The notes beneath the pieces were generated by a model. That model saw nothing but the letters and a program-made list of their open reading frames with translations. It did no database searches and had not been told where the DNA came from. 64,000 nucleotides of DNA from an uncultured Clostridia bacterium (lineage in GTDB: Bacteria; Bacillota; Clostridia; Oscillospirales; JAAYOS01): NCBI GenBank assembly GCA_947593925.1, contig CANQDU010000005.1, positions 48,571 to 112,570 on the forward strand. The letters run 5' to 3'. Shown here piece by piece: positions 2,406 through 59,206 of the stretch (positions within the stretch are counted from its first letter, which is position 1; each line of letters opens with the position of its first letter). The translations under genes and the position numbers were made by a program.

Positions 2406-2458
2406 CTCCCGGCGCGGACAATGCGCGCATCGGCGCGCTCCGCGGTTTTTGATTTGCC

Positions 2459-2496: not shown

Positions 2497-2519
2497 CGTT
2501 ATCGCTTCGGTTTGCTTAT

Positions 2520-5500
2520 TTACTTCACGATATTCTCGCAGAAGCGCATGAGTATCGTCGCTATCTGCGCGCGGATTGCTCCGCCGGACGGTGAGAGTGT
2601 CGTCGCGGTAGTGCCGCCGATGAGCTCTGTGCCAACGGCCCAGCTCATCGGGGCGGTCGCGTAGCTCTGGACGCTCGCGGCGTCGGTGTAGCCGGCGAGG
2701 CTTGCGGTAGTCGTGACGTCGTACTTCTTGTACGTGGCGTAGCGGTACAGGATGGTCGCGGCTTCCTCACGGGTGAGGTCGCGGTCGGGGCGGAAGGTTC
2801 CGTCGCCGTAGCCGCCGACTATCTCATTCGCCGCCGCCCAGTTGATTGCGTCGCTGTACCACTCGCCCGCCGCAACATCGCTGAACGGTATATTCTTCGT
2901 CACGGCGGGCTCGCCGTCGAGACGGTAGAGGATAGTCACGAGCATCGCGCGGTTGGTCTGGTCGTTCGGCGCAAAGTCAGTCTCGCTCACGCCGTTCATG
3001 AGCCCGTTCTTCACGACGTAGTTGATGGCGTCAACATACCACGCGGTCTGGTCGACGTCATAGAACCTCGTGGACGGCGCGGGACGGAACGACGGATAGG
3101 TCGGAGTGGTGGACGGCTCGGCCGGCTGCTCCTCGGAAGGCAGAGTGCCGCGCGTGATGTTGATGGTGTAGGTCTGTCCGTTGTATTCGATCTCCACCGT
3201 GTTCACGCTGTTGTTGACAAGGTCGATCCGATAAGAAATAGCAGAACCGGCTCCTGTATTTGCCACTTCCTCGCCGCCCAAAGTCACGGTCAAGCCCCCT
3301 GTGCCGGCCGAAGTAGTAGTCTCCGGGATGAGGTTGAGGCTCTCCACGTCGCTCCCTACGCTGATGTTATAGGTCGAAGTTGCGGGTGTGAAGTTTTCAA
3401 GGCTAGTGATCTCTCCGCTGTTGTCGATCTGAATGTTCTTGATGCATTTAATCGCCTCAAAGAGGAAGGGAGAGTAGCCCTCATGGTTATTGATGTAGGT
3501 CACGGTGCCGTCACTCTGGATTTGCAGATACTGCGGGTCAAGCGGTACTTCATTGTGGGTGTGCGTGACCTTGATCCAGTCGCCTGCTTTGCCCATAAAA
3601 TCAGGCATGGGCACCACAATGTAGGTGGGCTTGGTGCTCTCATAATTCACCCAGCCGTTATCATGGCTGTCGGTCGGCCTGATTATGGCGGAGTTCTGTC
3701 CTTCAGAGCTTCCGCCTTCGGTCTTGATGGCGTCCGGGTCGGCCTGATTGGAGGCCACCACGCGGTACTGGAAGTCAATATTAAGCTCGATCTTTCGTTT
3801 ACCGATTTCTTCGTTGTTTTTGGCTTCCGTGACGCTGATTTTAGTCTGGGTCTGAATGTGGCGGTAGACGTTGGCTTGATCGGTAACGCCCGCAGTTGTA
3901 AGGGCTTCTTGCAGCTTAACCACGCTATATTGACCGGCTCCATCCGCAGTCACATGACCGAGCATTTCGCTCACGGCATCGTCGTCCATCACTACGTTTA
4001 CTTTGTTGACATCAGTATACACGGTATTATTCTCATCCGCGACTGTCTTGGGGGCGTCGATAACGGTGTTGCCGCTGTCGTTCTTGATAACGAACACGGC
4101 GCTGACGTAGACAGGGGAGGTGTCAGGCAGAGTGAAAGTAAATGTTGTGCCACTGCCGTTGACACCTTCTACCGGGGTATTGGTGCCATAGTAGACGGAC
4201 GGCTTATCACCGGCCAACGAGTTGCCGGTATTGGGTGTGACGGTGACGGTCACAGCAGCGCCGTGCTTGACGGAGTAGACGTTGTCAAGAATCTTCGTCA
4301 CACCCTCGCCGCTGAGCGTCACGGTGCCGCCCAAGGTGGGTTCAACATAGACGATGCCGTTGACGGTGACTTTGACACTGGCGATTTTGTTCGGGTCATA
4401 GACAGACGTGCAGGTGACGGTGGCTTCACCCGGCTTGAGGCCGGTGATCACGCCGTTTTCCACGCTGACAATATCTTTACCCGCTTCATCTACCGACCAA
4501 GTGACCTCTTTATTGGCGGTGTCCGGGGTGATCGTGGGTGTGACCGTGGCCGTCTCGTTGACGTTGACGGTGACCTCCGGCTTGTCCAGTTTCAGGCTGT
4601 CTACTTTTTCAGAGGCGGTGGCGGTCAACGTGTTGGAGGTCAGCTCAAAATTTTTGAGCTTGGTCTGCACGTCCTTGGCGGCCTGGAGCATATCCGTCAG
4701 GGTCATGCTCTTACCGTACTTTTCATACCACGCATCATCGGATGAAATCAGATAGCGGACGAACTCGTCGGCGGTGAAAGCGGCCTTACCTTCATCGGAA
4801 TTATCAGCTTTGTGAGCCTGCGTGAAGTCCATCTTGCCGGTGACGGTGACGGTGGTGCCGGTGATCGGGCCGGAATAGTCATCTACCACCTTGGTGGGGA
4901 TTTGGACGGTCATCTCGCTGGAACTGTATTTGTCCCAGTCAAGGTCGATGGTAAACTTCTGAGCGCCGTCGAGTTTGGCCTTGATGGTGTGCGTGTTGTC
5001 GCCCTCCTGCACATCGTCGTCCCCAAGAGGCTGGCCGCCCACCTCAACGCCGGTGATCTTCAAAGAGGCGTTGCTGACGGTGATGGTGGTAAAGTCATCC
5101 TCATCCGCCGCGGGAATAAGGTGATCGTCTAGCTTCACGTTGATCTTGACGTCGGCAAAGTTCTCGTTGTCCACTGACTTGAAATATTTACCTCCGCTGC
5201 TCCAAGGCATATCGGAGGAGCTGAACAGGTCGGAGAACTTCATGCTGACCTCATAGGTAAGAGCTCCCGTCGCGTCCGTGGTGACAGACTCAAACCCGAA
5301 CGCGCTGCCGGTGGTCTTCTGCTGGAGCTTCACGGGTACGCCGCCCACCTCGTTATAAACGCTGAGCAGGGGCACTTCGGGAATGGACCCGGCGGCGGTC
5401 TCGGTCAGGGTGATTTCCTTCCAGTCCGCCTTGAGGGTAGTGGCGGCGTCGACCTCATACGAGTCGTAGAGATCGGCTACCTTATTCCCTTGGCCGTTGA

Positions 5501-6422
5501 CTTTCCAGCCGTTGAACTCATAATACTTGCCGTTAGTTCCAACAGCTATAAAGCTCACAACCGGATAGAAAACCTGAGTCGTTTCAATCACCGCCAAATT
5601 GCGGTGCTGTGCCAGCTTGGGGAGGGAAACCGTGTTCCCCGCTATCGCTTTTACCACATATTTGTTACTTTCTAACTTTACGGCCTTTGCTTTGTCTTCG
5701 TCTTTGGGCACGTGTGTGCCTTGCCCGGTAGGTGCGTTATAAGTAAGATTAAACGGATCGTCGCTGTCGGATTTGATCAGGTTCAAATTATTCTCGCTCT
5801 GGGCCACTGTAAAGTATCCCAGGGAGTAGGGAGCTACGCCGCTGCCCTGACTGTCCTCCCCTTTGAATTTTGCAAATACAGGATAAACTGTTGTACCCGC
5901 AGGGCCGGAGAAGTCATAGGTAACATTAAAGGCTTCGGCTTTTTCCCAAATGAACGCGATATTTAATTCGCCGCCAAAGAAGCTGGTAATATCACTCTCC
6001 GATATAGTAAGCTCTTTAGTAGCTGAACCGTCAAATTTAGTAATTGCATCACTTGTCGGTTTGCCATCACCTTCTTTTAACCCCGCCATTTCAAAGTATT
6101 TGCCTTGGTAGATCACGCCACTGCAAACGTAAACTTCAGATTGATAAGTGACACTTCCGGGTTTTGTGACGGTTACCTGGTGGGATTCTGATGCAAGTTT
6201 AGAGACATCCACGAATTTTTCCGAATTCCCAACCTTTGACGGAAAGTCTCCAGCCAACCTATCAGTTTGTATATACATAAAACCTTCTGTTTCATCATAG
6301 CTATAATCAAGTGCAGTAATTTCGATACTGTTAAAGTCAACGGCTTCCGCCAACGCCGCCGTCGGTACGAGCGTCATTATCATGCAAACCGCTAAAAAAA
6401 GAGCTAAAACTTTCCTCCTCAC
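2520..6422 (-). CDS. Large SLH-anchored cell-surface protein (Big_2 Ig-like domain, three C-terminal SLH repeats)
   Basis: 1300 aa. GTG 6422 with GAAAGGAG 10 nt upstream. Signal peptide MRRKVLALFLAVCMIMTLVPTAALA. Big_2-like VTWSVDEAGKDIVSVENGVITGLKPGEATVTCTS. C-terminal SLH repeats FYDVDQTAWYVDAINYV.., FSDVAAGEWYSDAINWA.., YTDAASVQSYATAPMSWA.. Confidence 0.9.
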   Translation of the reverse strand: MRRKVLALFLAVCMIMTLVPTAALAEAVDFNSIEITALDYSYDETEGFMYIQTDRLAGDFPSKVGNSEKFVDVSKLASESHQVTVTKPGSVTYQSEVYVCSGVIYQGKYFEMAGLKEGDGKPTSDAITKFDGSATKELTISESDITSFFGGELNIAFIWEKAEAFNVTYDFSGPAGTTVYPVFAKFKGEDSQGSGVAPYSLGYFTVAQSENNLNLIKSDSDDPFNLTYNAPTGQGTHVPKDEDKAKAVKLESNKYVVKAIAGNTVSLPKLAQHRNLAVIETTQVFYPVVSFIAVGTNGKYYEFNGWKVNGQGNKVADLYDSYEVDAATTLKADWKEITLTETAAGSIPEVPLLSVYNEVGGVPVKLQQKTTGSAFGFESVTTDATGALTYEVSMKFSDLFSSSDMPWSSGGKYFKSVDNENFADVKINVKLDDHLIPAADEDDFTTITVSNASLKITGVEVGGQPLGDDDVQEGDNTHTIKAKLDGAQKFTIDLDWDKYSSSEMTVQIPTKVVDDYSGPITGTTVTVTGKMDFTQAHKADNSDEGKAAFTADEFVRYLISSDDAWYEKYGKSMTLTDMLQAAKDVQTKLKNFELTSNTLTATASEKVDSLKLDKPEVTVNVNETATVTPTITPDTANKEVTWSVDEAGKDIVSVENGVITGLKPGEATVTCTSVYDPNKIASVKVTVNGIVYVEPTLGGTVTLSGEGVTKILDNVYSVKHGAAVTVTVTPNTGNSLAGDKPSVYYGTNTPVEGVNGSGTTFTFTLPDTSPVYVSAVFVIKNDSGNTVIDAPKTVADENNTVYTDVNKVNVVMDDDAVSEMLGHVTADGAGQYSVVKLQEALTTAGVTDQANVYRHIQTQTKISVTEAKNNEEIGKRKIELNIDFQYRVVASNQADPDAIKTEGGSSEGQNSAIIRPTDSHDNGWVNYESTKPTYIVVPMPDFMGKAGDWIKVTHTHNEVPLDPQYLQIQSDGTVTYINNHEGYSPFLFEAIKCIKNIQIDNSGEITSLENFTPATSTYNISVGSDVESLNLIPETTTSAGTGGLTVTLGGEEVANTGAGSAISYRIDLVNNSVNTVEIEYNGQTYTINITRGTLPSEEQPAEPSTTPTYPSFRPAPSTRFYDVDQTAWYVDAINYVVKNGLMNGVSETDFAPNDQTNRAMLVTILYRLDGEPAVTKNIPFSDVAAGEWYSDAINWAAANEIVGGYGDGTFRPDRDLTREEAATILYRYATYKKYDVTTTASLAGYTDAASVQSYATAPMSWAVGTELIGGTTATTLSPSGGAIRAQIATILMRFCENIVK

Positions 6423-6824
6423 AAAAATCGAACTCCTTTCATGCTTGAAAAGTATTCGGGGGTACGCCGAACCCGCCTCCCTGCCGCCGCCCGCCCGGAC
6501 GGAGACCCGCTGCGGCTGCGAGCCCCGCCCCGCGGGCAGACAATGAAAGGAGACGGAGAAACGAAAGTACCTCCTCCCGGCGCTTCGTTCTCACTCGAAA
6601 CGTCGGGAGCAGCCGCTTTCATGCGAAAAATTACCCGTTTGCGGAAAATCCTACTTTTTGGCAAATTGCGGGACGCTCGGCCGAGGGCAAAAATTCCCGA
6701 AAAATTTTATGAAAAACCTCTTGTATTTTCAATTTAATAGTGATAAAATTAGGCAAAACGACGTGAGCATTTAACCTGCCAAAAAGTAGAGGTTTTCGCA
6801 AATTTTCCCGCCCGAAAGATTACC

Positions 6825-6858
6825 AAACCCCGCCTGTCCTGCGACAGGCGGGGTTTTT
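6825..6858 (-). terminator. Bidirectional hairpin downstream of tag
   Basis: AAACCCCGCCTGTC ctgc GACAGGCGGGGTTT, with T-runs on both strands (TTTTTGCC on plus, TTTGGTAATCTTT on minus). Confidence 0.55.
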
Positions 6859-7073
6859 GCCGGCTTTGTCTGCCGAACGTCACTTTCCGCTCCGGAACGG
6901 GTCGAGCGGAGGTCTGTGCTCCGATTCTTGCGATTCGCAAAACGTGTCTGTCGCTCATCCGATCCGCCAAAGCCGGAGAGCGCTTTTCTGCTCACAAACA
7001 CAAAAAACGCACCCGATTTCACGGGAAAGCGGGGGCGTTCGGCTGCGGTTTGGTTATCGGCGGAGCGAGCGGT

Positions 7074-7682
7074 TCAGGCTTCACGGTCGCGGCGCTTGCG
7101 CACGGTGGGGTGGTTTTCGACTATCTCGCGGTAGCGAAAGCAGCGCTCCGAGTGGTCGTTTATTATCCCGCACGCCTGGAGGTGGGAGTAAACCGTAACC
7201 GAGCCGAGGAACTTGAAGCCGCGCCGCTTCAGCTCGCGGCTTATGTCGTCCGAGAGACCGTTGCGCGCGACCGGCGCGGCGTTCTCCTTTCCGTGGCCGA
7301 TGTAGCAGACGGTCTTCCCGCCGGTGAAGCTCCACAGCCAGTCGCTGAAAGTGCCGAACTCCCGGCGCACCTCGAGAAAGCGCCCGGCGTTGTTGATTAT
7401 CGCCTCTATCTTCCGGCGGGACCTTATCATCCCCTCCGCCGACATTATCCGCTCTATGTCGCGCTCGCCATAGCGCGCTATCTTCTCGAAGTCGAAGCCG
7501 TCGAAGCACTCGCGGAATATCTCGCGCTTCTTTATCATCATCGTCCAGTTCAGCCCGCACTGCATTACCTCAAGGGAGAGGAACTCGAACTGCGCGCGGT
7601 CGTCGTGGAGCGGCGTTCCCCACTCCTCGTCGTGGTACTTTTCCATCTTGTCGTAGCCGAGGCACCATCCGCAGCGATCCAT
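7074..7682 (-). CDS. tag: DNA-3-methyladenine glycosylase I
   Basis: 202 aa from MDRCGWCLG. KYHDEEWGTP, LSLEVMQCGLNW, GSVTVYSHLQACGIINDH match the Tag family including the Zn-snap Cys/His residues. The upstream 38 codons of the track ORF are not needed. Confidence 0.9.
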   Translation of the reverse strand: MDRCGWCLGYDKMEKYHDEEWGTPLHDDRAQFEFLSLEVMQCGLNWTMMIKKREIFRECFDGFDFEKIARYGERDIERIMSAEGMIRSRRKIEAIINNAGRFLEVRREFGTFSDWLWSFTGGKTVCYIGHGKENAAPVARNGLSDDISRELKRRGFKFLGSVTVYSHLQACGIINDHSERCFRYREIVENHPTVRKRRDREA

Positions 7683-8114
7683 ACCGCACCCCTCCCGTGT
7701 GTCCGAACGGCGCGCAAGCGCCGCGCGGTGTTTTTTTGTCTGTGGGAAAACATCCCCGTATGAGTTGATTATATCCCGGACTCGGCGCGTTTGCAACAGT
7801 GAAATCCGGCTTTGAAGTATTCTGCTAGTCGTGCGGAAAGGCGCTCCGAGGGCCGCCGTATGCGCAAAGAGAGAGAATTTGGCGTTAATAAATTGTTAAC
7901 AGTCAGATAACACATTATCCAAATGTCGGAGCTAAAATAATAACCGAAAAAAGAGAGAAGGTGGTTCCGATGGGCACACAGCAAAAGGCGGCAGACACGT
8001 CAGGACGCGAGGTCCTGCGGGCCGCCGACACCGATTCCCGATCTACCCCATCGGCATAAGAAACAGAAGGGCAGACATAATAACTACAAAATGAATTTCC
8101 GGGAGGCATTTATT

Positions 8115-13275: not shown

Positions 13276-14265
13276 GTGATAAAAACGGAACTTAGAGTTT
13301 TGCAGTATTTCCTCGCGGTGACGCGCGAGGAGTCGATACTCGGGGCGGCGAAGTCGCTGCATCTGTCGCAGCCGACGCTCTCGCGCCAGCTCCACGAGCT
13401 CGAGGAGGAGCTCGGCAAGCCGCTCTTCATACGCTCGAACAGAAAAATAGCCCTCACCGAGGAGGGCATGATGCTCCGCAAGCGCGCGGAGGAGATATTG
13501 GAGCTCGTCCGCCGCGCGGAGGACGAGATCGCGCTTTCGGACGAGCACCTTGCGGGCGACGTCACGATAGGCGCGGCGGAGGCGGAGGGCGTGCGCTTCC
13601 TCGCGCACGCCGCCGAGAGGATGCGGGACGAGTACCCGCTCGTCCGCTTCCACATCATAAGCGGAGACAGCGCGGCGGTGCTTGAGGATCTTGACCGCGG
13701 GCTCGTGGACTTCGGGTTCGTGCTCGGTGAGGCGGACGCCGCAAAGTACGAGTCGATAGCGGCGCCATACCGCCCGTCCTTCGGGGTGCTCGTGCGGGAG
13801 GACGACCCGCTCGCGGCGCGCGCGTCTATAGCGCCGGAGGAGCTTTACGACCTGCCGCTCATAGTTTCGCGGCAGATGCTCCGCACCGACGACCTGCGGC
13901 GGATAATGCGCTGCGGCGCGGAGCGGCTGAATATCGCCGCCACCTACAACCTCCTCCACAACGGCGCGATGCTCGTGGACGAGGGCATGGGCTGCGCGGT
14001 CTGTCTTGAGGGCGTCGTGGACGTCTCCGGCGCGCGGCCGCTGCGGTTCGTGCCGTTCTCAGAGCAGCCGGATATACGCGCGTCGGTGATATGGAAGAAG
14101 TACCGCGTGTTCAGCCGCGCGGCGGAGCGCTTCCTTGCGGAGCTGCGGAGCCGCGCCGGGGCGCGACCTTCGGCTCCCGGCTTTGCGTCCCGTCGGCGCG
14201 CTTCATATGAAGGCTCGGGGTCTATTTCCCGAGCCGCGTCTTTATCCAGTAGTTTTTCATCTTGA
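13276..14265 (+). CDS. LysR-family transcriptional regulator
   Basis: N-terminal HTH ELRVLQYFLAVTREESILGAAKSLHLSQPTLSRQLHELEEELGKPLF. GTG start. The last ~40 codons are low-complexity and run into the rearrangement junction at about 14.2 kb. Confidence 0.85.
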   Translation: MIKTELRVLQYFLAVTREESILGAAKSLHLSQPTLSRQLHELEEELGKPLFIRSNRKIALTEEGMMLRKRAEEILELVRRAEDEIALSDEHLAGDVTIGAAEAEGVRFLAHAAERMRDEYPLVRFHIISGDSAAVLEDLDRGLVDFGFVLGEADAAKYESIAAPYRPSFGVLVREDDPLAARASIAPEELYDLPLIVSRQMLRTDDLRRIMRCGAERLNIAATYNLLHNGAMLVDEGMGCAVCLEGVVDVSGARPLRFVPFSEQPDIRASVIWKKYRVFSRAAERFLAELRSRAGARPSAPGFASRRRASYEGSGSISRAASLSSSFSS

Positions 14266-14300
14266 AGCCGCGCTCGGCAGCGATATTTCTCCGGAACGCG
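14222..14300 (-). pseudogene. Orphan 3'-end fragment resembling the CYTH gene terminus
   Basis: Minus-strand translation ..AERGFKMKNYWIKTRLGK* parallels the end of the intact CYTH gene (..FERGFKMKNYWIRTRLKE*). No upstream CYTH body. Confidence 0.35.
14243..14276. repeat. 34-bp direct repeat, copy 1
   Basis: tatccagtagtttttcatcttgaagccgcgctcg is identical to 15964-15997. The flanking bases differ on both sides. Confidence 0.9.
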
Positions 14301-14476
14301 CGGTATTCCCGGCGGTTTTCTCCGGCTCTGCGGAAATCCGCACGCCGGAAGCCGCCGCCGGATGTTCTGCGCCCTTTGGAAACCTCCCGTATTTTCCTCG
14401 CCGGTGAGTACCCAAACTGTGATGAGGGCAGTTTGAGTGTCAGGCGAGCGAAGTATAAATCTATGAAAAGAATGTT

Positions 14477-15516
14477 TTATTCATCAAAGCTGACCGATAC
14501 AATTTCATTCCACAACAAACCCGCATAGTCGGAAATGATGTTTTTCTCTTGCTGCGTTACCGACTTGAACAATGTAATCAATAATTTCCCGTTCTTCTTT
14601 TTCCATTTGCCGGCCACTTCGCCATCCATCAGAAGTGCAGGCATTACGATCCCCGAGAGATTGAATATTGCTCTCATATTTTCCCGACTCAAAAACAGGC
14701 TTTCCTTTTTTTCGTGAGCCAAGAGAAGCTGGTCAAATCCCGCAAGAAACAAACATTTGGGAATTGCCTGATCGTATGTCTGGTTATTGTCAATATGCCT
14801 TTACATTCCACCGTTGATACAGGCAAGCGGGAAAGCCAATCCTTCACCTGCGCGGCTGTCGCGTGGAAATAGTACATGGCGTCGTGAACGGTGGAGGGAC
14901 CCATGTGCGTAAAATATCGGCGGGCCATTTCCAACTTTGCTTCTCGCTCGGGAATGGGCGTAAACGCAGGAGAAAGGCAGAAGGCCTTTTTTTCCTGCAC
15001 AACGTAGTTCATAAACCCGCGCTCACACATTTCGCGGATGCCGCCGCCCCACTGATCGAACATACTGTTTTCTTCCGGCTCGGTCATGCCGTTTTGCCTG
15101 CATACATTCTTTAATTCTTCTCTTGTCAGTTCCGCGCCTTTTAGGGCATCCAAAATCACATTTACAAAATAGGCCTGCCGCTCCGGTGTGAGCGACCACG
15201 TATCGCGCTGATTCCAAAATGTATATCCGCGCCAATCCCTGCTCAGATAATCCCGCCCATTATTACAGTGAATAAATAAAGATAGATCGTCTTCCGCAAA
15301 TACGTGAACGGTTCCTCTGACCGTCCAGTTCTTCACAAGTCCTTCCTTGAGCGTGTCCTCCCGATAATCAAAACACCGTATCTTGAGCGAGTGTATCGCA
15401 TTCGTCATAAATTGCGCCTGTACCCCGCAAAGATCGTGCAGTACTGTCATTTTATCCGTGGGTATCAGTAGATGCTGATTGGCTAATTGACGAAGTTTCA
15501 GTTCTTCAATAGTCAT
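14477..15516 (-). pseudogene. YcaQ-family (DUF1006, winged-helix) DNA glycosylase gene, frameshifted
   Basis: Track ORFs 14689..15516 and 14477..14752 are the N- and C-terminal parts of one YcaQ-like protein in different frames (..PNVCF / FLAGFDQLLLAHEKK..). Local GC is far below the window average. Confidence 0.6.
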
Positions 15517-15554
15517 GATGTACCTTCTATTTTAGTCTCTCTTTTTTTATTTCA

Positions 15555-15893
15555 CTATATCATCCCGAAATGCTCCAGTGCCGCCCTGATCGCTGCCTCT
15601 TTCTCTGGCGGGCATTGTGGCTGTCGGGAATCCTCTGACTTGGGCTTATTGTAATTCTCCCGCTCAATAATGCCACACTTTTGTTTCACTTGCGCGATGT
15701 AGAGGGAAGAAACCGTGAGCCCGGTATGCTCTTTCACATAAGCCTTGATCTCTCCATAGGTCGCGCCTTTCTGGAAGCCGGACATATCCATATCCTCCAG
15801 AGAGAAGTCAATCCTGATTTTCTTTGACTGGATTTCTCCCTTGGAAAGTTGAATAACCGTCTCGACGCATTCCGTCCCGGGGAACATATCCAC
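15555..15893 (-). pseudogene. 3' fragment of a 23S rRNA (uracil-C5)-methyltransferase (RlmD-like) gene
   Basis: ..DMFPGTECVETVIQLSK followed by the C-terminal extension seen in clostridial RlmD proteins. No SAM-binding core upstream. The fragment ends where GC jumps back up at about 15.9 kb. Confidence 0.45.
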
Positions 15894-15942
15894 CGGGCGG
15901 ACGCGGCGCGCGGCCGTGCTCCGCGCCGTTCCGCCGCGCCCC

Positions 15943-16425
15943 CTACTCCTTGAGCCGGGTGCGTATCCAGTAGTTTTTCATCTTGAAGCCGCGCTCGAAG
16001 GTGACGTCTCTCGCGCCCTCGCCCGGCCAGACGAATGCGCGCGCCTCGTCCTCGCTCTCAAACTCGGCCTCGCCGTACATGAATTCGTGCTCGGTGCCGG
16101 CGTCTACCACAGAGCAGTCCAGCGCGCGGCCGCCGTACATGTAACGGCGGTAGTCCTTGCGTATCGGCTCGCGGCCGATGAAGCGGACTATCTCGAGGTA
16201 AAATTCCTCGGTTATCGGGGTCTCTATCTCCTCGCGGGAGAGGTCGCCCTCGCCCTTGACGGTGAGCTTGCAGGAGACCCGGCCCTTCTCCGGACCCTCC
16301 AACGTCTCCGCGCGCCTCACGCGCACCTCCGGCGAGACCGAGAGGTACGCCTGCGTCACGGCGTCATGCGTGACGAGCGGCAGGTCCGGCAGGGCGGACA
16401 GAAGGAATTTGCGCTCTATCTCCAT
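15943..16425 (-). CDS. CYTH-domain protein (triphosphate tunnel metalloenzyme family)
   Basis: 160 aa starting MEIERKFLL (the ExExK motif), with later charged beta-strand pattern VRVRR, KLTVKGEG, REEIE. Confidence 0.8.
   Translation of the reverse strand: MEIERKFLLSALPDLPLVTHDAVTQAYLSVSPEVRVRRAETLEGPEKGRVSCKLTVKGEGDLSREEIETPITEEFYLEIVRFIGREPIRKDYRRYMYGGRALDCSVVDAGTEHEFMYGEAEFESEDEARAFVWPGEGARDVTFERGFKMKNYWIRTRLKE
15964..15997. repeat. 34-bp direct repeat, copy 2 (inside the 3' end of the CYTH gene)
   Basis: Identical to 14243-14276. Confidence 0.9.
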
Positions 16426-17702: not shown

Positions 17703-17710
17703 CGCGCTGC

Positions 17711-18007
17711 GCAATTCCCAAACGCTCCAGAGGAGCGTTTGGGAGCCCTTCCGATTGAAATGCTCGGCGGAAATGAATTCCGCCTGCGCGAAGTTGGCGG
17801 CTGCGCCGCCAACTTTAACCGCGCGAACAGGCGCGGGAGCGCCTTCGGCGGAAAATCGACGCAATTCCCAAACGGTCGGTAGACCGTTTGGGAGCCCTTC
17901 CGATTGAAATGCTCGGCGGAAATGAATTCCGCCTGCGCGAAGTTGGCGGCTGCGCCGCCAACTTTAACCGCGCGAACAGGCGCGGGAGCACCTTCGGCGC
18001 TCGACGC
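17711..18007. repeat. Modular multi-hairpin intergenic repeat, two tandem ~150-bp units (forward orientation)
   Basis: Unit 1 is 17711-17860, unit 2 is 17861-~18007. Each has hairpins H1 cccaaacg..cgtttggg, H2 ggcggaaatgaattccgcc, H3 gttggcggctgcgccgccaac, H4 ccgcgcgaacaggcgcgg. Confidence 0.9.
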
Positions 18008-18095
18008 CCGCTCCAACAAGATGCGCCACCTCGCCGGCGGATCGTCCGCCGCGATAGCCGGAGACTGGTTCACGGCGCACGGGAAGGGCGTGAAC

Positions 18096-18269
18096 ATGGG
18101 CGCGTTCGGCAGCGCGGAAAACCGCGCGCTCGCGGAAAAGCTTGAGAATGTGTTCTCCGCATGGATACACAACGGCGACAGCGATCTTGCGAGCCCCGAC
18201 ACCGTGATACTCAAAATCGAGCTCGCCGACGACGTGCTGCTGTCGCACGGAACAAGGTACGAGTTTTAG
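18096..18269 (+). CDS. Hypothetical small protein (57 aa)
   Basis: ATG 18096 is 7 nt after gggaaggg. Genome-like codon usage. Followed directly by a strong terminator. No family recognised. Confidence 0.3.
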   Translation: MGAFGSAENRALAEKLENVFSAWIHNGDSDLASPDTVILKIELADDVLLSHGTRYEF

Positions 18270-23620: not shown

Positions 23621-24925
23621 ATGGAAAAACTGAAAAAGCTGTTTTCGACACCCGAGAGGAAGATCATCACCGTCGTCTGCATCGTGCTCATTCTCGCGAT
23701 AGCGGGCGCGGGGACGGTCATGGCCGTGCGCGCGAACGCGCAGCACAACGCGATAGGCGTTGAAAATGCGACAAACTTCGCGTTCGCGGACGCCGGGGTG
23801 GATCCAGCCTCCGCGCGCGTGGAGCACACCGAGTTTGAGTTTGAAAACGGGCGGTTCGTCTATGAGATAGAGTTCACCGCCGACGGCGCGGAGTACGACT
23901 ACCTCGTAAGCGCGGCGGACGGCGCGATAGTGAAGAAGGAGGTCGAGCGCGTCCGGAACGGCGCGGCGGGCGAGCCCGTCCCGGCGACCGTTACGCTTGA
24001 AGCCGCGAAGAATGCGGCGCTCGCGGACGCGGGGCTCGCGGAGTCGGACGTCACGTTCACCAAGACCCGCCTCGACACGGAGGACGGCTTTGCGGTCTAT
24101 GAGATAGATTTCTACACGGCGGACTCCGAGTATGAGTACGAGATAAACGCCGAGACCGGCGAGGTTTTCAGCAGGAGCAGAGAGGTCTGGAACGGCGGCA
24201 GACCCGCCGCTCAGCCGACCTCCGCGCCCACGGTCGCGCCGACAGCCGCACCGTCCGAGGCTCCGACCCCCGCGGCGTCCGAGGCTCCGACCCCGGTTCC
24301 GACCGCGGCTCCGACTGCAACGCCGACGGCCACACCGTCCGAGACGCCTAGTGCCGTTCCGACGGCAACTCCGGCTTCCGACGGCTATATCGGTACCGAC
24401 GCCGCGAAGGACGCGGCGCTCGCGGACGCGGGGCTTTCCGCGTCGGATGTCACGTTTGTCAAGGAGAAGTTCGACTGGGACGACAGGCGCGCGGTGTATG
24501 AGATAGAGTTCTACGGCACGGACGCGGAGTACGAGTATGAGATAGACGCACTCACCGGCGCTGTCATAAGCAAGAGCAAGGAGATCTGGGGCGGCGGCAG
24601 ACCTGTCGCACAGCCGACGGTCGCGCCCTCGGCGGCTCCGTCCGAGACGCCGACACCCACACCCACACCTACGGCGGCTCCGAGCGCGACGCCTACTGCC
24701 GACGGCTACATCGGCGCGGACGCCGCGAAGGACGCGGCGCTCGCGGACGCGGGACTTTCCGCGTCGGACGTCACCTTTGTCAAGCAGGAGTTTGACCGCG
24801 ACGACGGGCGCGCGGTGTACGAGGTGGAGTTTTACAGCGGCGGCGTCGAGTACGAGTACAAGATAGACGCCGCGACCGGCGCGGTGCTCGAGCGCGACGT
24901 CGATCTCGACCACGACCACCACTGA
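23621..24925 (+). CDS. Membrane-anchored protein with four PepSY domains separated by Pro/Thr linkers
   Basis: 434 aa. N-terminal TM IITVVCIVLILAIAGAGTVMAV. Four repeats of ..AL(A)DAG(L/V)..(S)DV(T)F.K...D.(E/D)DGR.VYE(I/V)EF.. ATG 23621 follows gaaaggag. Confidence 0.85.
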   Translation: MEKLKKLFSTPERKIITVVCIVLILAIAGAGTVMAVRANAQHNAIGVENATNFAFADAGVDPASARVEHTEFEFENGRFVYEIEFTADGAEYDYLVSAADGAIVKKEVERVRNGAAGEPVPATVTLEAAKNAALADAGLAESDVTFTKTRLDTEDGFAVYEIDFYTADSEYEYEINAETGEVFSRSREVWNGGRPAAQPTSAPTVAPTAAPSEAPTPAASEAPTPVPTAAPTATPTATPSETPSAVPTATPASDGYIGTDAAKDAALADAGLSASDVTFVKEKFDWDDRRAVYEIEFYGTDAEYEYEIDALTGAVISKSKEIWGGGRPVAQPTVAPSAAPSETPTPTPTPTAAPSATPTADGYIGADAAKDAALADAGLSASDVTFVKQEFDRDDGRAVYEVEFYSGGVEYEYKIDAATGAVLERDVDLDHDHH

Positions 24926-26848: not shown

Positions 26849-26886
26849 GTTTGTCAAAAAAGTTCTTACGAACTTTTTTGACAAAC
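26849..26886. terminator. Perfect 17-bp-stem hairpin immediately after the HAD-SLOG stop codon
   Basis: GTTTGTCAAAAAAGTTC ttac GAACTTTTTTGACAAAC, then TTTC. Confidence 0.7.
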
Positions 26887-27371
26887 TTTCGCGGGAAATC
26901 ACGCTCGCTTCGCAATTCCCACGCGGTCAGAGACCGCGTGGGAGCCCTTCCGATTGAAATGCTCGGCGCAAATGAATTGCCCCTGCGCGAAGTTAGCGGC
27001 TTTGCCGCCAACTTCAACCGCGCGAACCGGCGTGGAGCCGCCTTCGGCGGAAAATCGACGCACGCTGCGCGAGAAGTATTTTCGGCGACGTACACGCCGC
27101 CGCCGAAAATAAATTTGACTTTATTTCGCCGCTTACGCGGCGAAACTCTGCGAGGCTTGATTACATCGTCCGCGCCGGTTTGCGCGGTTGATGTTGCCGC
27201 AGGCAACATCGCGCAGGCATATTAAGCACTGTGTTTGGCATTGCCCGCGAAGCGGGCAATGCTCACGAGGGCTGAACAGGTGCCGATGAGGAACGTGTTG
27301 GCGCCCTCGTGTTTCCGAGCGAGCATTTCAATCGGAAGGGCCCCCCAAACGGTGCGAAGCACCGCTTGGGG
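26887..27371. repeat. Modular multi-hairpin repeat, composite locus (forward unit, extension modules, inverted unit)
   Basis: Forward H1-H4 unit 26911-27058, modules M5-M7 to about 27160, then H4', H3', extra hairpins and H1' in inverted orientation to 27371. Confidence 0.85.
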
Positions 27372-30561: not shown

Positions 30562-30688
30562 ATCCCACTCCTTTGTTGTGCTACTGTCGGGCAAGTATCG
30601 GCAACGCCCCGTGCCGGCACCCTCGGAATAAATGCGCTCGGATAGAAGCTGCTCAAAGTCGGGCAATATTCGCGGAGCGAATATTGCA

Positions 30689-31016
30689 GGCGAGGGCAGT
30701 AAAATGTCGGATGAGGAATGATTGCGTGCCCTCGCGACTTCCGCGCCTGTTCGCGCGGTGAAGTTGGCGGCAAAGCCGCCAACTTCGCGCAGGGGCAATT
30801 CATTTGCCCCGAGCATTTTAATCTAAGGGGTCCCCAAACGGTTCCAACGGAACCGTAGAACCGTACTTCCGCGCCGGTTCGCGCGGTTGAAGTTAGCGGC
30901 ACAGCCGCTAACTTCGCGCAGCCGGAATTCATTTCCGGCGAGCATTTTAATTTAAGAGCACCAAACGGCCTCCCGGCCGTTTGGTGCGGCGGAGCGCCGC
31001 CGAAGGCGGCGCGGAG
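30689..31016. repeat. Modular multi-hairpin repeat, two tandem units in reverse orientation
   Basis: H4' ccgcgcctgttcgcgcgg, H3' gttggcggcaaagccgccaac, H2' ggggcaattcatttgcccc, H1' ccccaaacgg..; second unit cgcgccggttcgcgcgg, gttagcggcacagccgctaac, gccggaattcatttccggc, caccaaacggcctcccggccgtttggtg. Confidence 0.85.
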
Positions 31017-31053
31017 CCCAACAAAAAAGGCAGCCTGCGGCTGTCTTTTTTGT

Positions 31054-31127
31054 TGGAGCGGGCGAAGGGAGTCGAACCCTCCTCTAAAGCTTGGGAAGCT
31101 CTCGTTCTACCGATGAACTACGCCCGC
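31054..31127 (-). tRNA. tRNA-Gly (anticodon CCC)
   Basis: Hand-folded 74 nt: acceptor GCGGGCG/CGCCCGC, anticodon arm AGAGC-TTCCCAA-GCTTT, T-arm GAGGG-TTCGACT-CCCTT, encoded CCA. A T-rich hairpin (31024-31053) lies just downstream. Confidence 0.9.
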
Positions 31128-32101: not shown

Positions 32102-32162
32102 AAACTCAATCAAACAGGCCAATACGTTAACAAATCAACGTGATTATAAAGGAGATGCAGCT

Positions 32163-33068
32163 ATGAAAAAACCGGTTCTTGTCGTTATGGCGGCGGGCAT
32201 GGCGAGCCGCTACGGCGGCGCGAAGCAGGTCGCCCCGGTTGACCCGGAGGGGCACGTCCTGCTTGACTTCTCGGTCTACGACGCTCACCGCGCCGGCTTC
32301 GACGAGGTCATCTTCATCATCCGGGAGAGCCTTCAGCGCGACTTTGACGACGATATCTGCCCCAACATAGACCCGTATATGACGACGAAGCTCGTCTATC
32401 AGCGCCTCACCGACCTGCCGGAGGGCTTCACCGTGCCGGAGGGGCGCACAAAGCCGTGGGGCACCACCCACGCCGTCCTCTGCGCGGAGGAGGCGATAGA
32501 CGGCAGGCCGTTCGCTGTCCTCAATGCGGACGACTTCTACGGGCTCGGCGCGTTCGAGGCAATATACCGCTTCCTCACCGAAAACGACGACCCCAAGGCG
32601 CATGCCCTCGCGGGCTATCACGTCGAGAACACCCTCAGCGACAACGGCACCGTCACCCGCGGCGTCTGCGATGTGGACGGCAGCACCCTCGTGGAGTGCC
32701 ACGAGCGCTACGGCATCTACCCCGTGGAGGGCGGCGCGAAGGACAGGGACGGGCGCTTCTTCCCGACCGGCACCTTCGTCTCGATGAACTTCTGGGGCTT
32801 CAAGCCCGGCATCTTTGAATATCTCAGGCGCGACTTCACGCGCTTCCTCGGCACCGAGGCGAAGGCCGACCCGATGAAGAGCGAGTCGCTGCTGCCGAAC
32901 ACCCCGTCCGAGCTCATTGAGTCCGGCGAGGCGAAGTTTACCGTCCTTCCGGTGAGCGAGACGTGGTCCGGCATCACCTACAAGGAGGACATGCCGGGAG
33001 TGCAGGCGCGCATTGCCGCCCTCAAGGCCGAGGGCAGGTACCCGCGCTTCCTGTGGAAAAAGGCGTAA
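32163..33068 (+). CDS. Sugar-phosphate nucleotidyltransferase (NTP_transferase fold), paralog 1
   Basis: 301 aa: VVMAAGMASRYGGAKQ (G-rich NTP loop), KPWGTTHAVL, VLNADDFYG. Confidence 0.75.
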   Translation: MKKPVLVVMAAGMASRYGGAKQVAPVDPEGHVLLDFSVYDAHRAGFDEVIFIIRESLQRDFDDDICPNIDPYMTTKLVYQRLTDLPEGFTVPEGRTKPWGTTHAVLCAEEAIDGRPFAVLNADDFYGLGAFEAIYRFLTENDDPKAHALAGYHVENTLSDNGTVTRGVCDVDGSTLVECHERYGIYPVEGGAKDRDGRFFPTGTFVSMNFWGFKPGIFEYLRRDFTRFLGTEAKADPMKSESLLPNTPSELIESGEAKFTVLPVSETWSGITYKEDMPGVQARIAALKAEGRYPRFLWKKA

Positions 33069-33091
33069 ACAGCGCGGAAGGAGCATTTTCT

Positions 33092-35498: not shown

Positions 35499-35672
35499 GT
35501 AAGCCTCGCAGAGTTTCGCCGCCGCAGGCGGCGAAATATGTTCAGATCCGCTTTTCCCGACGACATGCGAGTCGGGAAAAACTCTTTGCACGGAGCGAAG
35601 CGGAGGGTTCTCGGCGCAAAATGGTGCGCAGCGAAGCGAGCACGTTTTGCGCCGACGCGCCAGCGAATTTTC
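35499..35672. repeat. Modular hairpin repeat, partial copy
   Basis: aagcctcgcagagtttcgccgccgcaggcggcgaaat is the reverse complement of module M7 at 27122-27158, followed by further hairpins (ttttcccgac..gtcgggaaaa). Confidence 0.7.
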
Positions 35673-35678
35673 CGCGAC

Positions 35679-43691: not shown

Positions 43692-43952
43692 GAAATCTCG
43701 CGGGAAATCGTGCGGGCTTCGCCCGCAACCTATTTCCCGCGAGGCCGTCGGACAGAGCGGAGCTCTGCCGACGGCAAGCGCTACGCTACGCGCCGAGTTT
43801 TCCGCCTTCGGCGGAAAATCGACGCACGCTTCGCGAGAGGTGTTTTTTCCGACGTACACGCCGCCGGAAAAAACGGATTTAAATTATCGCCGCCTTCGGC
43901 GGCGAACTCTGCGAGGCTTTTGGTCGGGGTGCGGCTTAGACCGCAAGGGCGC
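43692..43952. repeat. Modular hairpin repeat, partial copy (H0, M5, M6, M7 modules)
   Basis: ctcgcgggaaat..atttcccgcgag nested hairpin; gccttcggcggaaaatcgacgcacgct; ttttttccgacgtacacgccgccggaaaaaa; cgccgccttcggcggcgaactctgcgaggctt. All match modules at 27040-27160. Confidence 0.8.
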
Positions 43953-51100: not shown

Positions 51101-51118
51101 CCCCAACTCACACTGAAT

Positions 51119-51164: not shown

Positions 51165-51170
51165 TGAGGA

Positions 51171-58969: not shown

Positions 58970-59007
58970 CCTCCTGCCCGTAGTGACGGGCAGGAGGTCT
59001 TTATTTA
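58970..59007 (+). terminator. Intrinsic terminator after ymdB
   Basis: ACCTCCTGCCCG tagtga CGGGCAGGAGGT then CTTTATTT. Confidence 0.75.
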
Positions 59008-59206
59008 CGGCCTCGCAGAGTTTCGCCGAAGCCGCTTCCGCGCCTGTTCGCGCGGTTGAAGTTGCTTGCCTTGGCAAGCAACTTCGCGCAGGGCGATTCA
59101 TTCGCCCGAGCACGTTTATTCGGAAGGGCTCCCACGCGGTCGCTGACCGCGCGGGAAATTGGTAAGGGGCAGACGAAGTCTGCCCCCGCGATTTCCCGCG
59201 AAAGTT
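59008..59206. repeat. Modular multi-hairpin repeat, one unit in reverse orientation plus H0
   Basis: M7' cctcgcagagtttcgccg, H4' ccgcgcctgttcgcgcgg, H3' gttgcttgccttggcaagcaac, H2' gggcgattcattcgccc, H1' cccacgcggtcgctgaccgcgcggg, H0 cgcgggaaat..ggggcagacgaagtctgcccc..atttcccgcg. Confidence 0.85.

What the first reader, a model, noticed from the sequence alone, without database searches (positions are those of the whole stretch)
17711..18007. Dispersed family of modular multi-hairpin intergenic repeats with conserved loops and compensatory stem changes
A ~150-bp unit occurs twice in tandem here and recurs at 26887-27371, 30689-31016, 35499-35672, 43692-43952 and 59008-59206, in both orientations and always between genes. 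The unit is a string of hairpins: H1 cccaaacg..cgtttggg, H2, H3, H4 ccgcgcgaacaggcgcgg. Stems covary while loops and linkers stay fixed. H1 is cccAAAcgctcc-aga-ggagcgTTTggg, cccaaacggtc-ggta-gaccgtttggg or cccACGcggtc-aga-gaccgCGTggg. H2 stems are ggcggaa, ggggcaa, gccggaa or gggcga around a constant atgaa/ttcat loop. H3 is gttggcggc-tgc-gccgccaac, gttagcggc-aca-gccgctaac or gttgcttgcc-tt-ggcaagcaac. This argues for selection on secondary structure, not merely on sequence. Candidates are REP/BIME-like elements (DNA hairpins recognised by a RAYT-type transposase), 3'-UTR stabiliser or terminator arrays, or an unclassified structured RNA. I do not recognise the sequence as a known family.
Basis: seen in the sequence. 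Interest (0 to 1): 0.7.

Follow-up and report, generated by a model that had tools for sequence, protein, structure and literature searches.

The report
Hairpin-chain mobile repeats at gene ends
The finding is a real, high-copy family of small non-coding DNA repeats built from chains of perfect hairpins in an uncultured rabbit-gut Clostridia bacterium; it looks like a new kind of miniature mobile element that settles just behind genes, not a dedicated RNA gene.

Summary
The repeat is real. A ~125-nt four-hairpin unit (U) occurs 8 times in the window and 136 times in 603 kb from the window plus three related rabbit-gut Clostridia MAGs, never inside predicted genes. Covariation is strong: 97.8% of cells are paired, and 30 of 35 pairs carry double-sided changes. 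But stems are almost purely Watson-Crick, G·U equals A·C (47 vs 48), and U orientation outside composites is unbiased. That argues against RNA-level selection on the copies. No Rfam family matches, and no RAYT was found in the sequence held.

U belongs to a larger mosaic of hairpin modules. "S..E" composites start 0-7 nt after stop codons, are co-oriented with the upstream gene (53:6), and are co-transcribed with it. Their 3' half is homologous to a ~202-nt element found in more than 120 metagenome contigs, many labelled human gut. That element has terminal inverted repeats and a direct duplication of the host terminator stem-loop, and an empty site exists in another metagenome, so it is mobile.

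Best reading: a lineage-specific, heavily rearranged branch of a new MITE/REP-like hairpin-element superfamily. The mobilising enzyme is unknown.

The parts
17716..17842 (+). Unit U1: H1 (cccaaacgctcc/ggagcgtttggg), linker, H2 (ggcggaa-atgaa-ttccgcc), H3, H4
   Evidence: CM R1 hit, 144 bits. Sequence. DNA fold -51.7 kcal/mol, z = -7.7.
17843..17865 (+). H5 mini-hairpin (cgccttcggcg) plus linker gaaaatcgacgcaat, joining the two units
   Evidence: The same H5/linker follows many units.
17866..17991 (+). Unit U2, tandem copy of U1; only the top of H1 differs, with compensation
   Evidence: CM hit, 147 bits. Repeat family D2, spacing 149, 98% identical.
17992..18007 (+). Truncated H5 remnant at the junction with a 5'-truncated PNPOx-like ORF
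26849..26886 (+). AT-rich first hairpin gtttGTCAAAAAAGTTC-ttac-GAACTTTTTTGACaaac, starting 0 nt after the stop codon; resembles the first hairpin / left TIR of the human-gut element
26887..26916 (+). S-module remnant (tttcgcgggaaatc) plus linker acgctcgcttcgcaat
26917..27041 (+). Unit U3 (H1 variant cccACGcggtc/gaccgCGTggg)
   Evidence: CM hit, 136.5 bits.
27036..27159 (+). H5 - linker - X1 hairpin - X2 hairpin - E tail (aactctgcgaggctt): the 3' half of an S..E composite
   Evidence: Homologous to the human-gut element.
27164..27371 (-). Unit U4, long form: H2 is replaced by an ~85-nt two-hairpin module (W1)
   Evidence: CM hit, 68.6 bits. Alignment. The same swap is seen at orthologous loci.
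30644..30734 (-). V/W2 module: hairpin caatattcgc..gcgaatattg plus cgagggc-large loop-gccctcg
   Evidence: Recurs in L053, L005, L060 and L069.
30735..30860 (-). Unit U5 (5' arm of H1 disrupted)
   Evidence: CM hit, 112.5 bits.
30863..30986 (-). Unit U6, about 70 nt downstream of tRNA 31057-31127(-), after that tRNA's terminator and an H5-like hairpin
   Evidence: CM hit, 132 bits. tRNA.
35499..35678 (-). S..E composite without a U unit; starts 1 nt after the stop codon of the IscU-like gene and ends with the E tail before a shared terminator
43692..43921 (+). S..E composite without a U unit (S, M2, H5, X1, X2, E tail), starting right after the HPRT-like gene's stop codon
   Evidence: RNA fold -131 kcal/mol, z = -8.2. 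An RNA contig spans the gene, the stop codon and S.
59007..59206 (-). S..E composite containing unit U7 (59032-59156), lying between the stop codon of the RCC1-repeat gene and a terminator hairpin

Best explanation
The feature is two tandem copies of a ~125-nt, four-hairpin, non-coding DNA cassette (U). U is a high-copy intergenic repeat (tens to about 100 copies per genome equivalent) in a narrow clade of rabbit-gut Clostridia.

U is one module of a larger mosaic of perfect-hairpin modules. The oriented 'S..E' composites of that mosaic are diverged relatives of a ~202-nt miniature transposable element found in many gut-metagenome contigs. That element inserts at intrinsic terminators and duplicates the terminator stem-loop.

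Proposed mechanism. These are selfish, non-autonomous elements that settle at gene 3' ends: behind stop codons, at terminators and behind tRNA genes. They are moved in trans by an enzyme not yet identified, which reads folded hairpin DNA together with the conserved single-stranded linkers and loops. Copies are then reshuffled module by module through recombination or gene conversion between copies and through tandem duplication. Stems stay Watson-Crick because only foldable copies propagate, and/or because a change in one arm of a palindrome is copied to the other arm by intrastrand template switching. Because the composites are transcribed as 3' UTRs, they probably also act like REP elements on mRNA 3' ends and on terminating ribosomes.

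Shown: repeat family, covariation, strand symmetry, placement, module turnover, homology to the other element, and mobility of that element.
Inferred: mobility of U itself, the enzyme, and any RNA-level effect.
For: - Family and copy number: 136 CM hits in 603 kb. DNA depth of unit bins is 40-200x that of flanking single-copy sequence in rabbit-gut metagenomes.
- Distribution: the U pattern occurs in only 3 of about 185,000 species genomes, plus one chance hit.
- Intergenic only.
- Covariation: 97.8% of cells paired vs 82.9% shuffled and about 40% slid; 572 double-sided changes vs 158.
- DNA-like symmetry: G·U 47 vs A·C 48. In composites, sense G·U 128 vs antisense 157. Frequent GC<->CG swaps.
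- U orientation outside composites is unbiased (13 '++' vs 16 '--'), and 15 units lie between divergent genes.
- Orthologous loci at 90-95% flank identity differ by whole modules.
- Composites: E tail co-oriented with the upstream gene 53:6. The first hairpin starts 0-7 nt after the stop codon in 32 of 44. TAA is enriched, p = 1e-5.
- Homology of window composites to the other element.
- That element has TIRs and a 19-32-nt terminator direct repeat in 14 of 46 distinct copies. A contig in run X26 skips exactly element + one repeat, i.e. an empty site.
- Solo U copies flanked by 49-nt and 59-nt-plus direct repeats, and a U-like copy in L139 flanked by about 50 nt.
- Flanking genes are housekeeping and none is a transposase.
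Against: - No transposase of any kind was found. Only about 600 kb of the rabbit clade could be searched, and with a single RAYT seed plus Pfam scans of selected ORFs.
- In the rabbit clade the composites lack recognisable TIRs and lack the terminator duplication (0 real cases of 66).
- No empty site for U or for a window composite could be recovered. Mobility of the window's own copies is therefore inferred from relatives and from turnover.
- Long flanking repeats around solo U are few (2-3). One apparent case (L028) is just a tandem duplication, and the L067 history is ambiguous.
- The strong gene-sense orientation and the stop-codon adjacency of composites could instead reflect selection for an RNA function.
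Confidence: 0.6

Rival explanations
1. Cis-acting structured RNA. The modules are selected as RNA hairpins in mRNA 3' UTRs. They would block 3'->5' exonucleases, provide RNase III or protein binding sites, or couple mRNA fate to translation termination through a hairpin placed 0-7 nt behind the stop codon. Their spread would be secondary.
For: - S..E composites are co-oriented with the upstream gene 53:6 and start 0-7 nt after the stop codon in 32 of 44.
- They lie between stop codon and terminator.
- An RNA-seq contig runs from the HPRT gene through the stop codon into S.
- The module/gene depth ratio in RNA (100-290x) is at least that in DNA (40-80x).
- UUCG/GNRA-type tetraloops are common.
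- Single-stranded linkers, the H2 loop and the E tail are conserved across distant lineages while stems covary.
- Precedent: REPs within 15 nt of a stop codon stall ribosomes (PMC12306157).
Against: - There is no strand asymmetry of wobble pairs in units (47 vs 48) or in composites (128 vs 157).
- U outside composites has no orientation preference and also sits between divergent genes.
- Orthologous loci swap, lose or invert modules freely.
- No Rfam match even at E <= 1.
- RNA evidence comes from unstranded assembled contigs, and coverage is patchy.
Confidence: 0.2
2. Classical REP/BIME system. The hairpins are REPs recognised as single-stranded DNA and multiplied by a single-copy RAYT (TnpA-REP, an HUH Y1 enzyme) encoded elsewhere in the genome.
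For: - High-copy extragenic GC-rich palindromes in mosaic arrays with linker motifs, in both orientations and with tandem multiplication.
- Stems must fold but may vary, as expected for structure-reading HUH enzymes.
- Many REPs in E. coli also sit close to stop codons (PMC12306157).
- GTAG occurs in the large loops of W modules.
Against: - phmmer with E. coli RayT finds nothing in 603 kb centred on the repeats (best E = 0.03, a PpiC-type protein).
- The HUH/Y regex hits are a radical SAM protein and one unrelated ORF.
- There is no conserved GTAG or CGTC tag at a hairpin foot (PMC3733652).
- The unit is a fixed chain of four different hairpins, not a 20-40 nt palindrome.
- Relatives have TIRs and long target duplications, which REPs lack.
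Confidence: 0.08
3. Transposase-free copy-and-paste. Hairpin-rich modules are copied between loci by replication template switching (fork stalling at palindromes, microhomology-mediated switching). This would produce long, variable flanking duplications and module mosaics joined at short shared linkers.
For: - Flanking duplications are long and variable (19-32 nt at terminators; 49, 59-105 and about 50 nt around U or U-like copies).
- Module junctions fall in short shared motifs such as CGCTnCGC and GTACACGCC.
- Stems are perfect with simultaneous two-arm changes, as template switching produces (PMC8794818).
- No transposase was seen.
Against: - The human-gut element has defined ends with 13/16-matching TIRs, a constant ~202-nt length and a constant junction geometry. 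These suggest a protein-guided reaction.
- There are too few cases around U.
- No direct evidence for the process.
Confidence: 0.1
4. Arrays of intrinsic transcription terminators.
For: GC-rich hairpins lie downstream of genes.
Against: - Stems are not followed by T-runs on either strand. Where A/T runs exist, they pair with each other and extend the stem.
- Separate, unique canonical terminators lie beyond the composites.
- Units also occur between divergent genes.
Confidence: 0.02

Closest known systems
REP / BIME elements of Enterobacteria and Pseudomonas (with RAYT)
   Same: - High-copy, extragenic, GC-rich hairpins combined with short linker motifs into mosaic arrays.
- Both orientations and tandem amplification.
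- Located in 3' UTRs, often within a few nt of the stop codon.
- Variable between close relatives.
   Different: - The unit here is a fixed chain of four different hairpins (~125 nt) with conserved loops and linkers.
- No GTAG/CGTC tag.
- No RAYT found in the sequence held.
- Related elements show TIRs and long target duplications.
Bacterial MITEs that fold into long RNA/DNA hairpins (Correia/NEMIS, ERIC, YPAL, RUP, bcr1; reviews PMC3184786, PMC10969869)
   Same: - Small, non-coding, multi-copy and intergenic.
- Co-transcribed with neighbouring genes.
- Presence/absence polymorphism.
- The human-gut relative has TIRs, a target duplication and an empty site.
   Different: - The target duplication is the entire terminator stem-loop (19-32 nt), not 2-9 nt.
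- The body is a chain of independent perfect hairpins rather than one long TIR-driven foldback.
- No parent IS is known.
- The rabbit-clade copies have lost recognisable TIRs and TSDs.
BOX elements of Streptococcus pneumoniae (boxA-boxB(n)-boxC)
   Same: - Modular repeat in Firmicutes built from interchangeable sub-units with a variable number of internal modules.
- Stable predicted structure, intergenic, transcribed.
   Different: No sequence similarity. There are many more module types, the hairpins are perfect with compensatory variants, and the elements are anchored to the stop codon or terminator.
IS1634/IS1549-type insertion sequences (long, variable direct repeats; recalled from my own knowledge, not tested here)
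   Same: Insertions flanked by unusually long, variable-length target duplications.
   Different: Those are autonomous DDE insertion sequences. No such gene was seen here, and here the duplication coincides with a hairpin.

Membership tests
REP/BIME (RAYT-associated) | Short (20-40 nt) imperfect palindrome as the repeated unit | tested here: not met
   The repeated unit is ~125 nt with four distinct, near-perfect hairpins. Individual hairpins are 17-29 nt but do not occur as free-standing repeats.
REP/BIME (RAYT-associated) | Conserved GTAG or CGTC tetranucleotide at one foot of the palindrome (PMC3733652) | tested here: not met
   There is no conserved tag at the foot of H1-H4, S, M2, X1 or X2. 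GTAG is seen only inside the large loops of W modules.
REP/BIME (RAYT-associated) | A cognate RAYT (HUH/Y1) gene in the genome, typically flanked by REPs | tested here: inconclusive
   None in 603 kb centred on the repeats (phmmer with E. coli RayT; HUH/Y regex plus Pfam). Whole genomes were not available.
REP/BIME (RAYT-associated) | High-copy, extragenic, mosaic arrays with linker motifs | tested here: met
MITE | Terminal inverted repeats | tested here: inconclusive
   Met in the human-gut relatives (GAGACTGTCGAAAAAG / CTTTTTCGACAAACTG, 13/16). Not recognisable for U, nor for the window's S..E composites, where the S and E ends show only a 7/14 match.
MITE | Target-site duplication | tested here: inconclusive
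   Relatives: a 19-32-nt direct repeat equal to the terminator hairpin in 14 of 46. Rabbit composites: none of 66. Solo U: 49-nt and 59-nt-plus direct repeats in 2 cases, about 50 nt in L139.
MITE | Insertion polymorphism with a precise empty site | tested here: inconclusive
   Shown for the relative at L126: a contig in run X26 skips 226 nt, with 24 nt fitting both sides. Not obtained for any window locus or for U. Orthologous loci do differ by whole modules.
MITE | Derivation from an autonomous IS with the same ends | not testable with these tools
   No transposase lies next to any copy held.
Known structured RNA family (Rfam 15) | Match to a curated covariance model | tested here: not met
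   Only tRNAs reach threshold. No module matches at E <= 1 in the window or in 8 loci.
Functional structured RNA (generic) | Strand-specific constraint: G·U tolerated, A·C not; consistent orientation to transcription | tested here: not met
   G·U 47 vs A·C 48. In composites, 128 vs 157. U orientation is unbiased outside composites. The orientation criterion is met only by S..E composites (53:6).
Intrinsic terminator | GC-rich stem immediately followed by a U-tract | tested here: not met
   There are no T-runs 3' of H1-H5, X1 or X2 on either strand.
IS200/IS605-derived PATE | Subterminal hairpins, insertion 3' of a fixed tetra/pentanucleotide, no TSD, TnpA (Y1) in the genome | tested here: not met
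   The spacing to the stop codon is variable with no fixed target motif. Relatives have long direct repeats. No Y1 homologue is held.

The most novel reading that the evidence does not exclude
A superfamily of 'hairpin-chain' miniature elements in gut Clostridia recognises an extruded intrinsic-terminator stem-loop (or any strong hairpin at a gene's 3' end). It inserts beside it in a fixed orientation and duplicates the whole stem-loop, or tens of nucleotides of the gene end. The upstream hairpin copy loses its U-tract, so the element becomes part of the 3' UTR. This could happen either through a transposase that cuts at the two feet of a cruciform or through transposase-free replication template switching. 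The rabbit-clade U arrays would be a runaway, recombining offshoot of this system. Neither a terminator-duplicating MITE nor such a modular hairpin grammar appeared among the papers retrieved by my literature searches, which were read only in part.
Probability: 0.35. Interest if true: 0.75.

Novelty: new variant of a known kind. Interest (0 to 1): 0.55.

Why it matters
1. The finding shows that textbook-quality covariation (97.8% paired, hundreds of compensatory changes) can arise in selfish palindromic DNA without any RNA-level signature. The G·U vs A·C symmetry test and the orientation test used here are cheap guards against false 'new ncRNA' calls in genome scans.

2. These elements occupy about 2.6% of the window and sit directly behind stop codons of housekeeping genes (PFK, IscU, HPRT, fumarase neighbours). 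They probably shape mRNA 3' ends and translation termination in a whole clade of gut Clostridia.

3. The related element gives a concrete, testable case of terminator-targeted insertion with duplication of the stem-loop. Such an insertion mode would rewire 3' UTRs while preserving termination.

4. The repeats fragment MAG assemblies: many copies lie at contig ends. They could also serve as strain-typing markers.

Tried and rejected
- Rfam at gathering and at E <= 1 on the window and on 8 loci: only tRNAs and noise.
- A hammerhead-like motif (CCGAUGAGGAA) in W loops: variable between copies and not a ribozyme core.
- RAYT search: an HUH/Y regex gave two ORFs. One was scanned and is a radical SAM protein; the other (L043) was not scanned. 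The best RayT phmmer hit (E = 0.03) is a PpiC-type rotamase.
- Genes flanked by repeats on both sides: MetE-like, ClpP, MreB and a secreted protein of unknown function. None is a transposase.
- Viral contigs: one hit (L080), which is a chance match inside coding sequence. Plasmids: no match.
- Pairing of the E tail with the linker before X1, predicted by RNAfold: the commonest linker variant gives a C·A mismatch. The two motifs look more like direct repeats, so the pairing was dropped.
- TIRs between the S and E ends: only 7/14 match.
- Inner hairpin of S as a captured terminator copy: no matching hairpin downstream of E.
- Empty sites for window loci and for U, using Logan contigs of rabbit metagenomes: contigs break at the repeats, and only module-level variants were seen.
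- L028 'TSD': it is a 260-nt tandem duplication.
- The look-up of encoding contigs for the PFK protein: not on record.
Full report

Yes. Window 17703-18010 holds two head-to-tail copies of a unit, with spacing 149 and 98% identity. An alignment of seven window copies shows a common order:
- H1 (ccc..ggg hairpin)
- a conserved linker (AGCCCTTCCGATTGAAATGCTC)
- H2, with loop ATGAA
- CTGCGCG
- H3
- H4 (CCGCGCGAACAGGCGCGG)

A 23-base pattern spanning H3-H4 hits 7 times in the window against 0.00 expected from shuffles. A covariance model built from 12 copies finds the following units in the window: 17716-17842(+), 17866-17991(+), 26917-27041(+), 27164-27371(-), 30735-30860(-), 30863-30986(-) and 59032-59156(-). 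It finds 136 matches in all in the window plus 78 related loci.

They share other hairpin modules with 26887-27371 and 59008-59206.

**2. Where does it come from?**

The same pattern, scanned over one genome for each of about 185,000 species, occurs in only three 'uncultured Clostridia' MAGs from rabbit gut: Lapin-022_bin13, Lapin-008_bin30 and Lapin-004_bin9. There is also one chance hit. The window's genes are 90-96% identical to the first two MAGs. The window's DNA is held at 98% of sampled words by runs of one rabbit-gut metagenome sample.

Flanking genes are ordinary housekeeping genes: phosphofructokinase, polyphosphate kinase, a HAD hydrolase, fumarase, IscU, HPRT, FtsH and YmdB. No unit lies inside a predicted gene. 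Repeat islands make up 2.6% of the window. Unit bins have 40-200 times the depth of flanking single-copy DNA in rabbit metagenomes.

**3. Covariation, and what it does and does not mean**

On the 136-copy alignment:

| Measure | Observed | Control |
|---|---|---|
| Cells forming a standard pair | 97.8% | 82.9% with shuffled partners; about 40% with partners slid by 1-3 columns |
| Pairs with changes on both sides | 30 of 35 | - |
| Doubly changed cells | 572 | 158 expected |

The raw sequences show the same thing without any structure-guided alignment. H1, H2 and H3 exist as discrete variants, each perfectly self-complementary. H2 examples are GGCGGAA, GGGGCAA, GCCGGAA, GGGGCGA, GCCCCGA and GGGCGA.

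The H2 loop is 97% conserved, linkers 87% and the H4 loop 87%. The H1 and H3 loops are variable (42% and 51%). H4 barely varies at all.

Three results argue against selection on RNA in the individual copies:
- Single-sided changes are rare, and G·U equals A·C (47 vs 48). For the larger composites the count is 128 on the sense strand and 157 on the antisense strand.
- Many compensations are GC<->CG swaps, which cannot pass through a wobble intermediate.
- Outside composites, units show no orientation preference relative to co-directional genes (13 vs 16), and 15 sit between divergent genes.

The constraint is therefore strand-symmetric. That is what is expected for hairpins read as DNA, or for palindromes kept perfect by intrastrand template switching (a mechanism documented in PMC8794818). 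One caveat applies. If new copies descend from a few active masters, mismatches in the copies are neutral decay and would be symmetric whatever the intermediate is.

**4. The unit is part of a larger modular system**

Besides U there are several other modules:
- an S hairpin (TTCGCGGGAAAT..ATTTCCCGCGAA, with a variable inner hairpin)
- M2 (GCCGTCGGACAGAGC..GCTCTGCCGACGGC, with a bulged A)
- H5, X1 and X2
- a conserved 3' tail, AACTCTGCGAGGCTT ('E')
- longer two-hairpin W/V modules

These appear.

'S..E' composites behave differently from U in four ways:
- The E tail is co-oriented with the upstream gene in 53 cases against 6.
- The first strong hairpin starts 0-7 nt after the stop codon in 32 of 44 composites.
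- The stop codon is TAA in 30 of 44, against 148 of 401 for all genes (Fisher p = 1e-5). By reading the listed starts, not by a separate count, those beginning with a canonical S hairpin all appear to follow TAA or TAG.
- Within one 64-kb window the composites point both ways, each following its own gene. Orientation therefore tracks transcription, not replication.

Units inside composites share the composite's orientation 21:4.

An RNA-seq contig from a related strain runs from the HPRT gene through the stop codon into S and M2. Module-to-gene depth ratios in RNA (100-290x) are at least those in DNA (40-80x in the source sample). The composites are therefore transcribed as 3' UTRs. These data are unstranded assembled contigs with patchy coverage and cannot show processing.

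The hairpins are not terminators, because no T-run follows them on either strand. Distinct canonical terminators lie beyond the E tail.

**5. Turnover**

The site behind the PFK gene carries three different arrays in three genomes:
- window: two units (300 nt)
- Lapin-022: an S..U..E composite followed by inverted units
- Lapin-008: a 1.1-kb array of other modules

In the window the array abuts a PNPOx-like gene that has lost about 120 nt of its 5' end.

At the tRNA locus (window 30570-31060 compared with L043) and at L005 compared with L048, whole modules are exchanged cleanly: H2 for the 85-nt W1 module, and H4 for a variant joined to W2. Junctions fall in short shared motifs. This is concerted, module-wise evolution by recombination among dispersed copies plus tandem duplication. 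L041 holds four to five units with a 118-nt period.

**6. Relatives outside the clade**

Two 'unverified bacteriophage' contigs from human faeces matched the X/E region. A specific 29-base pattern for linker + X1 + X2 + E tail then hit more than 120 metagenome contigs. Where a contig name states its source, it is human gut.

There the element is discrete and about 202 nt long. It begins GAGACTGTCGAAAAAG and ends CTTTTTCGACAAACTG (13 of 16 positions inverted-complementary). It has the same linkers and E tail as the window's composites, and entirely different, fully compensated stems: 24 different X2 arms in 38 elements, with 306 Watson-Crick pairs to 7 G·U.

In 14 of 46 distinct elements, the host's intrinsic-terminator stem-loop (19-32 nt) is present as a direct repeat on both sides. 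The A-run lies only to the left and the T-run only to the right.

For L126 the layout is direct repeat 6483-6506, element 6507-6708, direct repeat 6709-6732. A 1,723-nt contig in another faecal metagenome (run X26) skips exactly 226 nt, with 24 nt fitting either side. This is an empty site holding one copy of the hairpin. That relative is therefore a mobile element that targets terminators and duplicates the stem-loop.

The window's composites D and E align with it from the linker CGCTnCGCTnCGCGCC through to the E tail. The rabbit M2 hairpin aligns with its first hairpin, which is its left TIR.

In the rabbit clade I found neither the right TIR nor the terminator duplication (0 real cases of 66).

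For U itself there are hints of long target duplications:
- L067: a perfect 49-nt direct repeat around one unit.
- L075: a 59-nt exact match (68 nt at 98.5% by BLAST), and by eye up to about 105 nt.
- L139: a diverged U-like copy in a 3.2-Mb metagenome contig, flanked by about 50 nt of a gene's 3' end.

They are few. One other candidate (L028) is a plain tandem duplication, and the history at L067 is ambiguous.

**7. What it is not**

- No Rfam family matches, even at E <= 1.
- There is no match in plasmids, and the single viral-contig hit is a chance match.
- No RAYT/Y1 homologue occurs in 603 kb centred on the repeats, and no transposase lies beside or between repeats. Whole genomes could not be searched.
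- No conserved GTAG or CGTC tag stands at a hairpin foot (criterion from PMC3733652).

**8. Verdict**

The finding is a genuine, previously undescribed repeat family. The best explanation is selfish, non-autonomous hairpin DNA of the REP/BIME-MITE kind. It sits in a lineage where a terminator-targeting miniature element has diversified into a recombining library of hairpin modules, of which the four-hairpin unit U is the most amplified.

The covariation is real, but it reflects a strand-symmetric foldback constraint or mutational mechanism, not a demonstrated RNA function. A secondary REP-like effect on mRNA 3' ends and on termination at the adjacent stop codon is plausible for the oriented composites (precedent reported in PMC12306157), but it is untested.

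The mobilising enzyme, the mobility of U itself and the reason for the TAA/TAG bias remain open.

Noticed in passing
window 48206-54415: Large inverted duplication: 682-nt arms at 93% identity, plus further arms. It carries two long ORFs (48218-51100 + and 51656-54436 -, about 930-960 aa) facing a central 0.5-kb spacer. The spacer contains a 14-nt tandem repeat, GCGCGGGACACACA x ~6 (51213-51317), and a 46-nt inverted repeat at 98% (51119-51164 / 51599-51644). It looks like an invertible or paralogous surface-protein locus.
   Followed up: no
window 18008-18269: A PNPOx-like gene lacks about 120 nt of its 5' end compared with the Lapin-008 orthologue (L053, starting at 4570). The repeat array replaces the missing part, and the only ORF start (TTG at 17904) lies inside the repeat.
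   Followed up: partly
loci L001-L078 and window (stop codons of genes followed by S..E composites): Genes followed by a composite end in TAA far more often than other genes (30/44 vs 148/401, p = 1e-5). By reading the listed starts, those beginning with a canonical S hairpin all appear to follow TAA or TAG, never TGA. This could be a target preference, an element-supplied stop codon, or selection against TGA followed by a hairpin.
   Followed up: partly
L126 6483-6732; also L083, L090, L103, L129, L135, L137, L140, L151, L160, L161: In human-gut metagenome contigs, a ~202-nt TIR-bearing relative is flanked by a direct duplication of the host terminator stem-loop (19-32 nt). An empty site was found in run X26. 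This is an unusual insertion geometry.
   Followed up: yes
L139 4362-4620 (contig VOFH01001223.1, 3.2 Mb): A diverged U-like four-hairpin element (48 bits) is flanked by an approximately 50-nt direct repeat covering the last codons and the stop codon of a minus-strand gene. By eye that gene's C-terminus resembles a UVR domain; this was not tested.
   Followed up: partly
window 31057-31127; L060 6419-6491; L069 5393-5466; L018 5836-6023: Units often sit some 40-70 nt downstream of tRNA genes, in the tRNA's orientation in the window, L060 and L069. In L060 and L069 the unit follows right after a terminator whose T-run ends ..TTTTGGnT.
   Followed up: partly
L081 and L082 (GenBank MT835961.1, MT838551.1): Two 'UNVERIFIED: Bacteriophage sp.' contigs from human faeces carry the element downstream of ordinary-looking genes. 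They may be bacterial DNA in virome data, or phages of the carrier bacteria.
   Followed up: partly
window 23800-24900 and 32160-33990: Internal coding repeats. Three to four ~320-400-nt repeats lie in the ORF 23621-24925. A 929-nt tandem duplication at 78-79% identity (32161-33972) gives two paralogous ~300-aa ORFs.
   Followed up: no
window 2000-8000 and 14000-16000: Lower G+C (52-59% vs about 63%), including a 1300-aa ORF (2520-6422, -) and a weak CRISPR-DR10-like match at 5581-5619 (E = 0.12, below threshold). This may be foreign DNA.
   Followed up: no
L044 1334-1413 vs L060 632-1133: A minimal element consisting only of the X2 hairpin plus E tail (about 40 nt) sits right behind a stop codon in Lapin-022. 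The orthologous site in Lapin-004 has a degenerate E tail followed by about 430 nt of inverted modules and a different terminator.
   Followed up: partly
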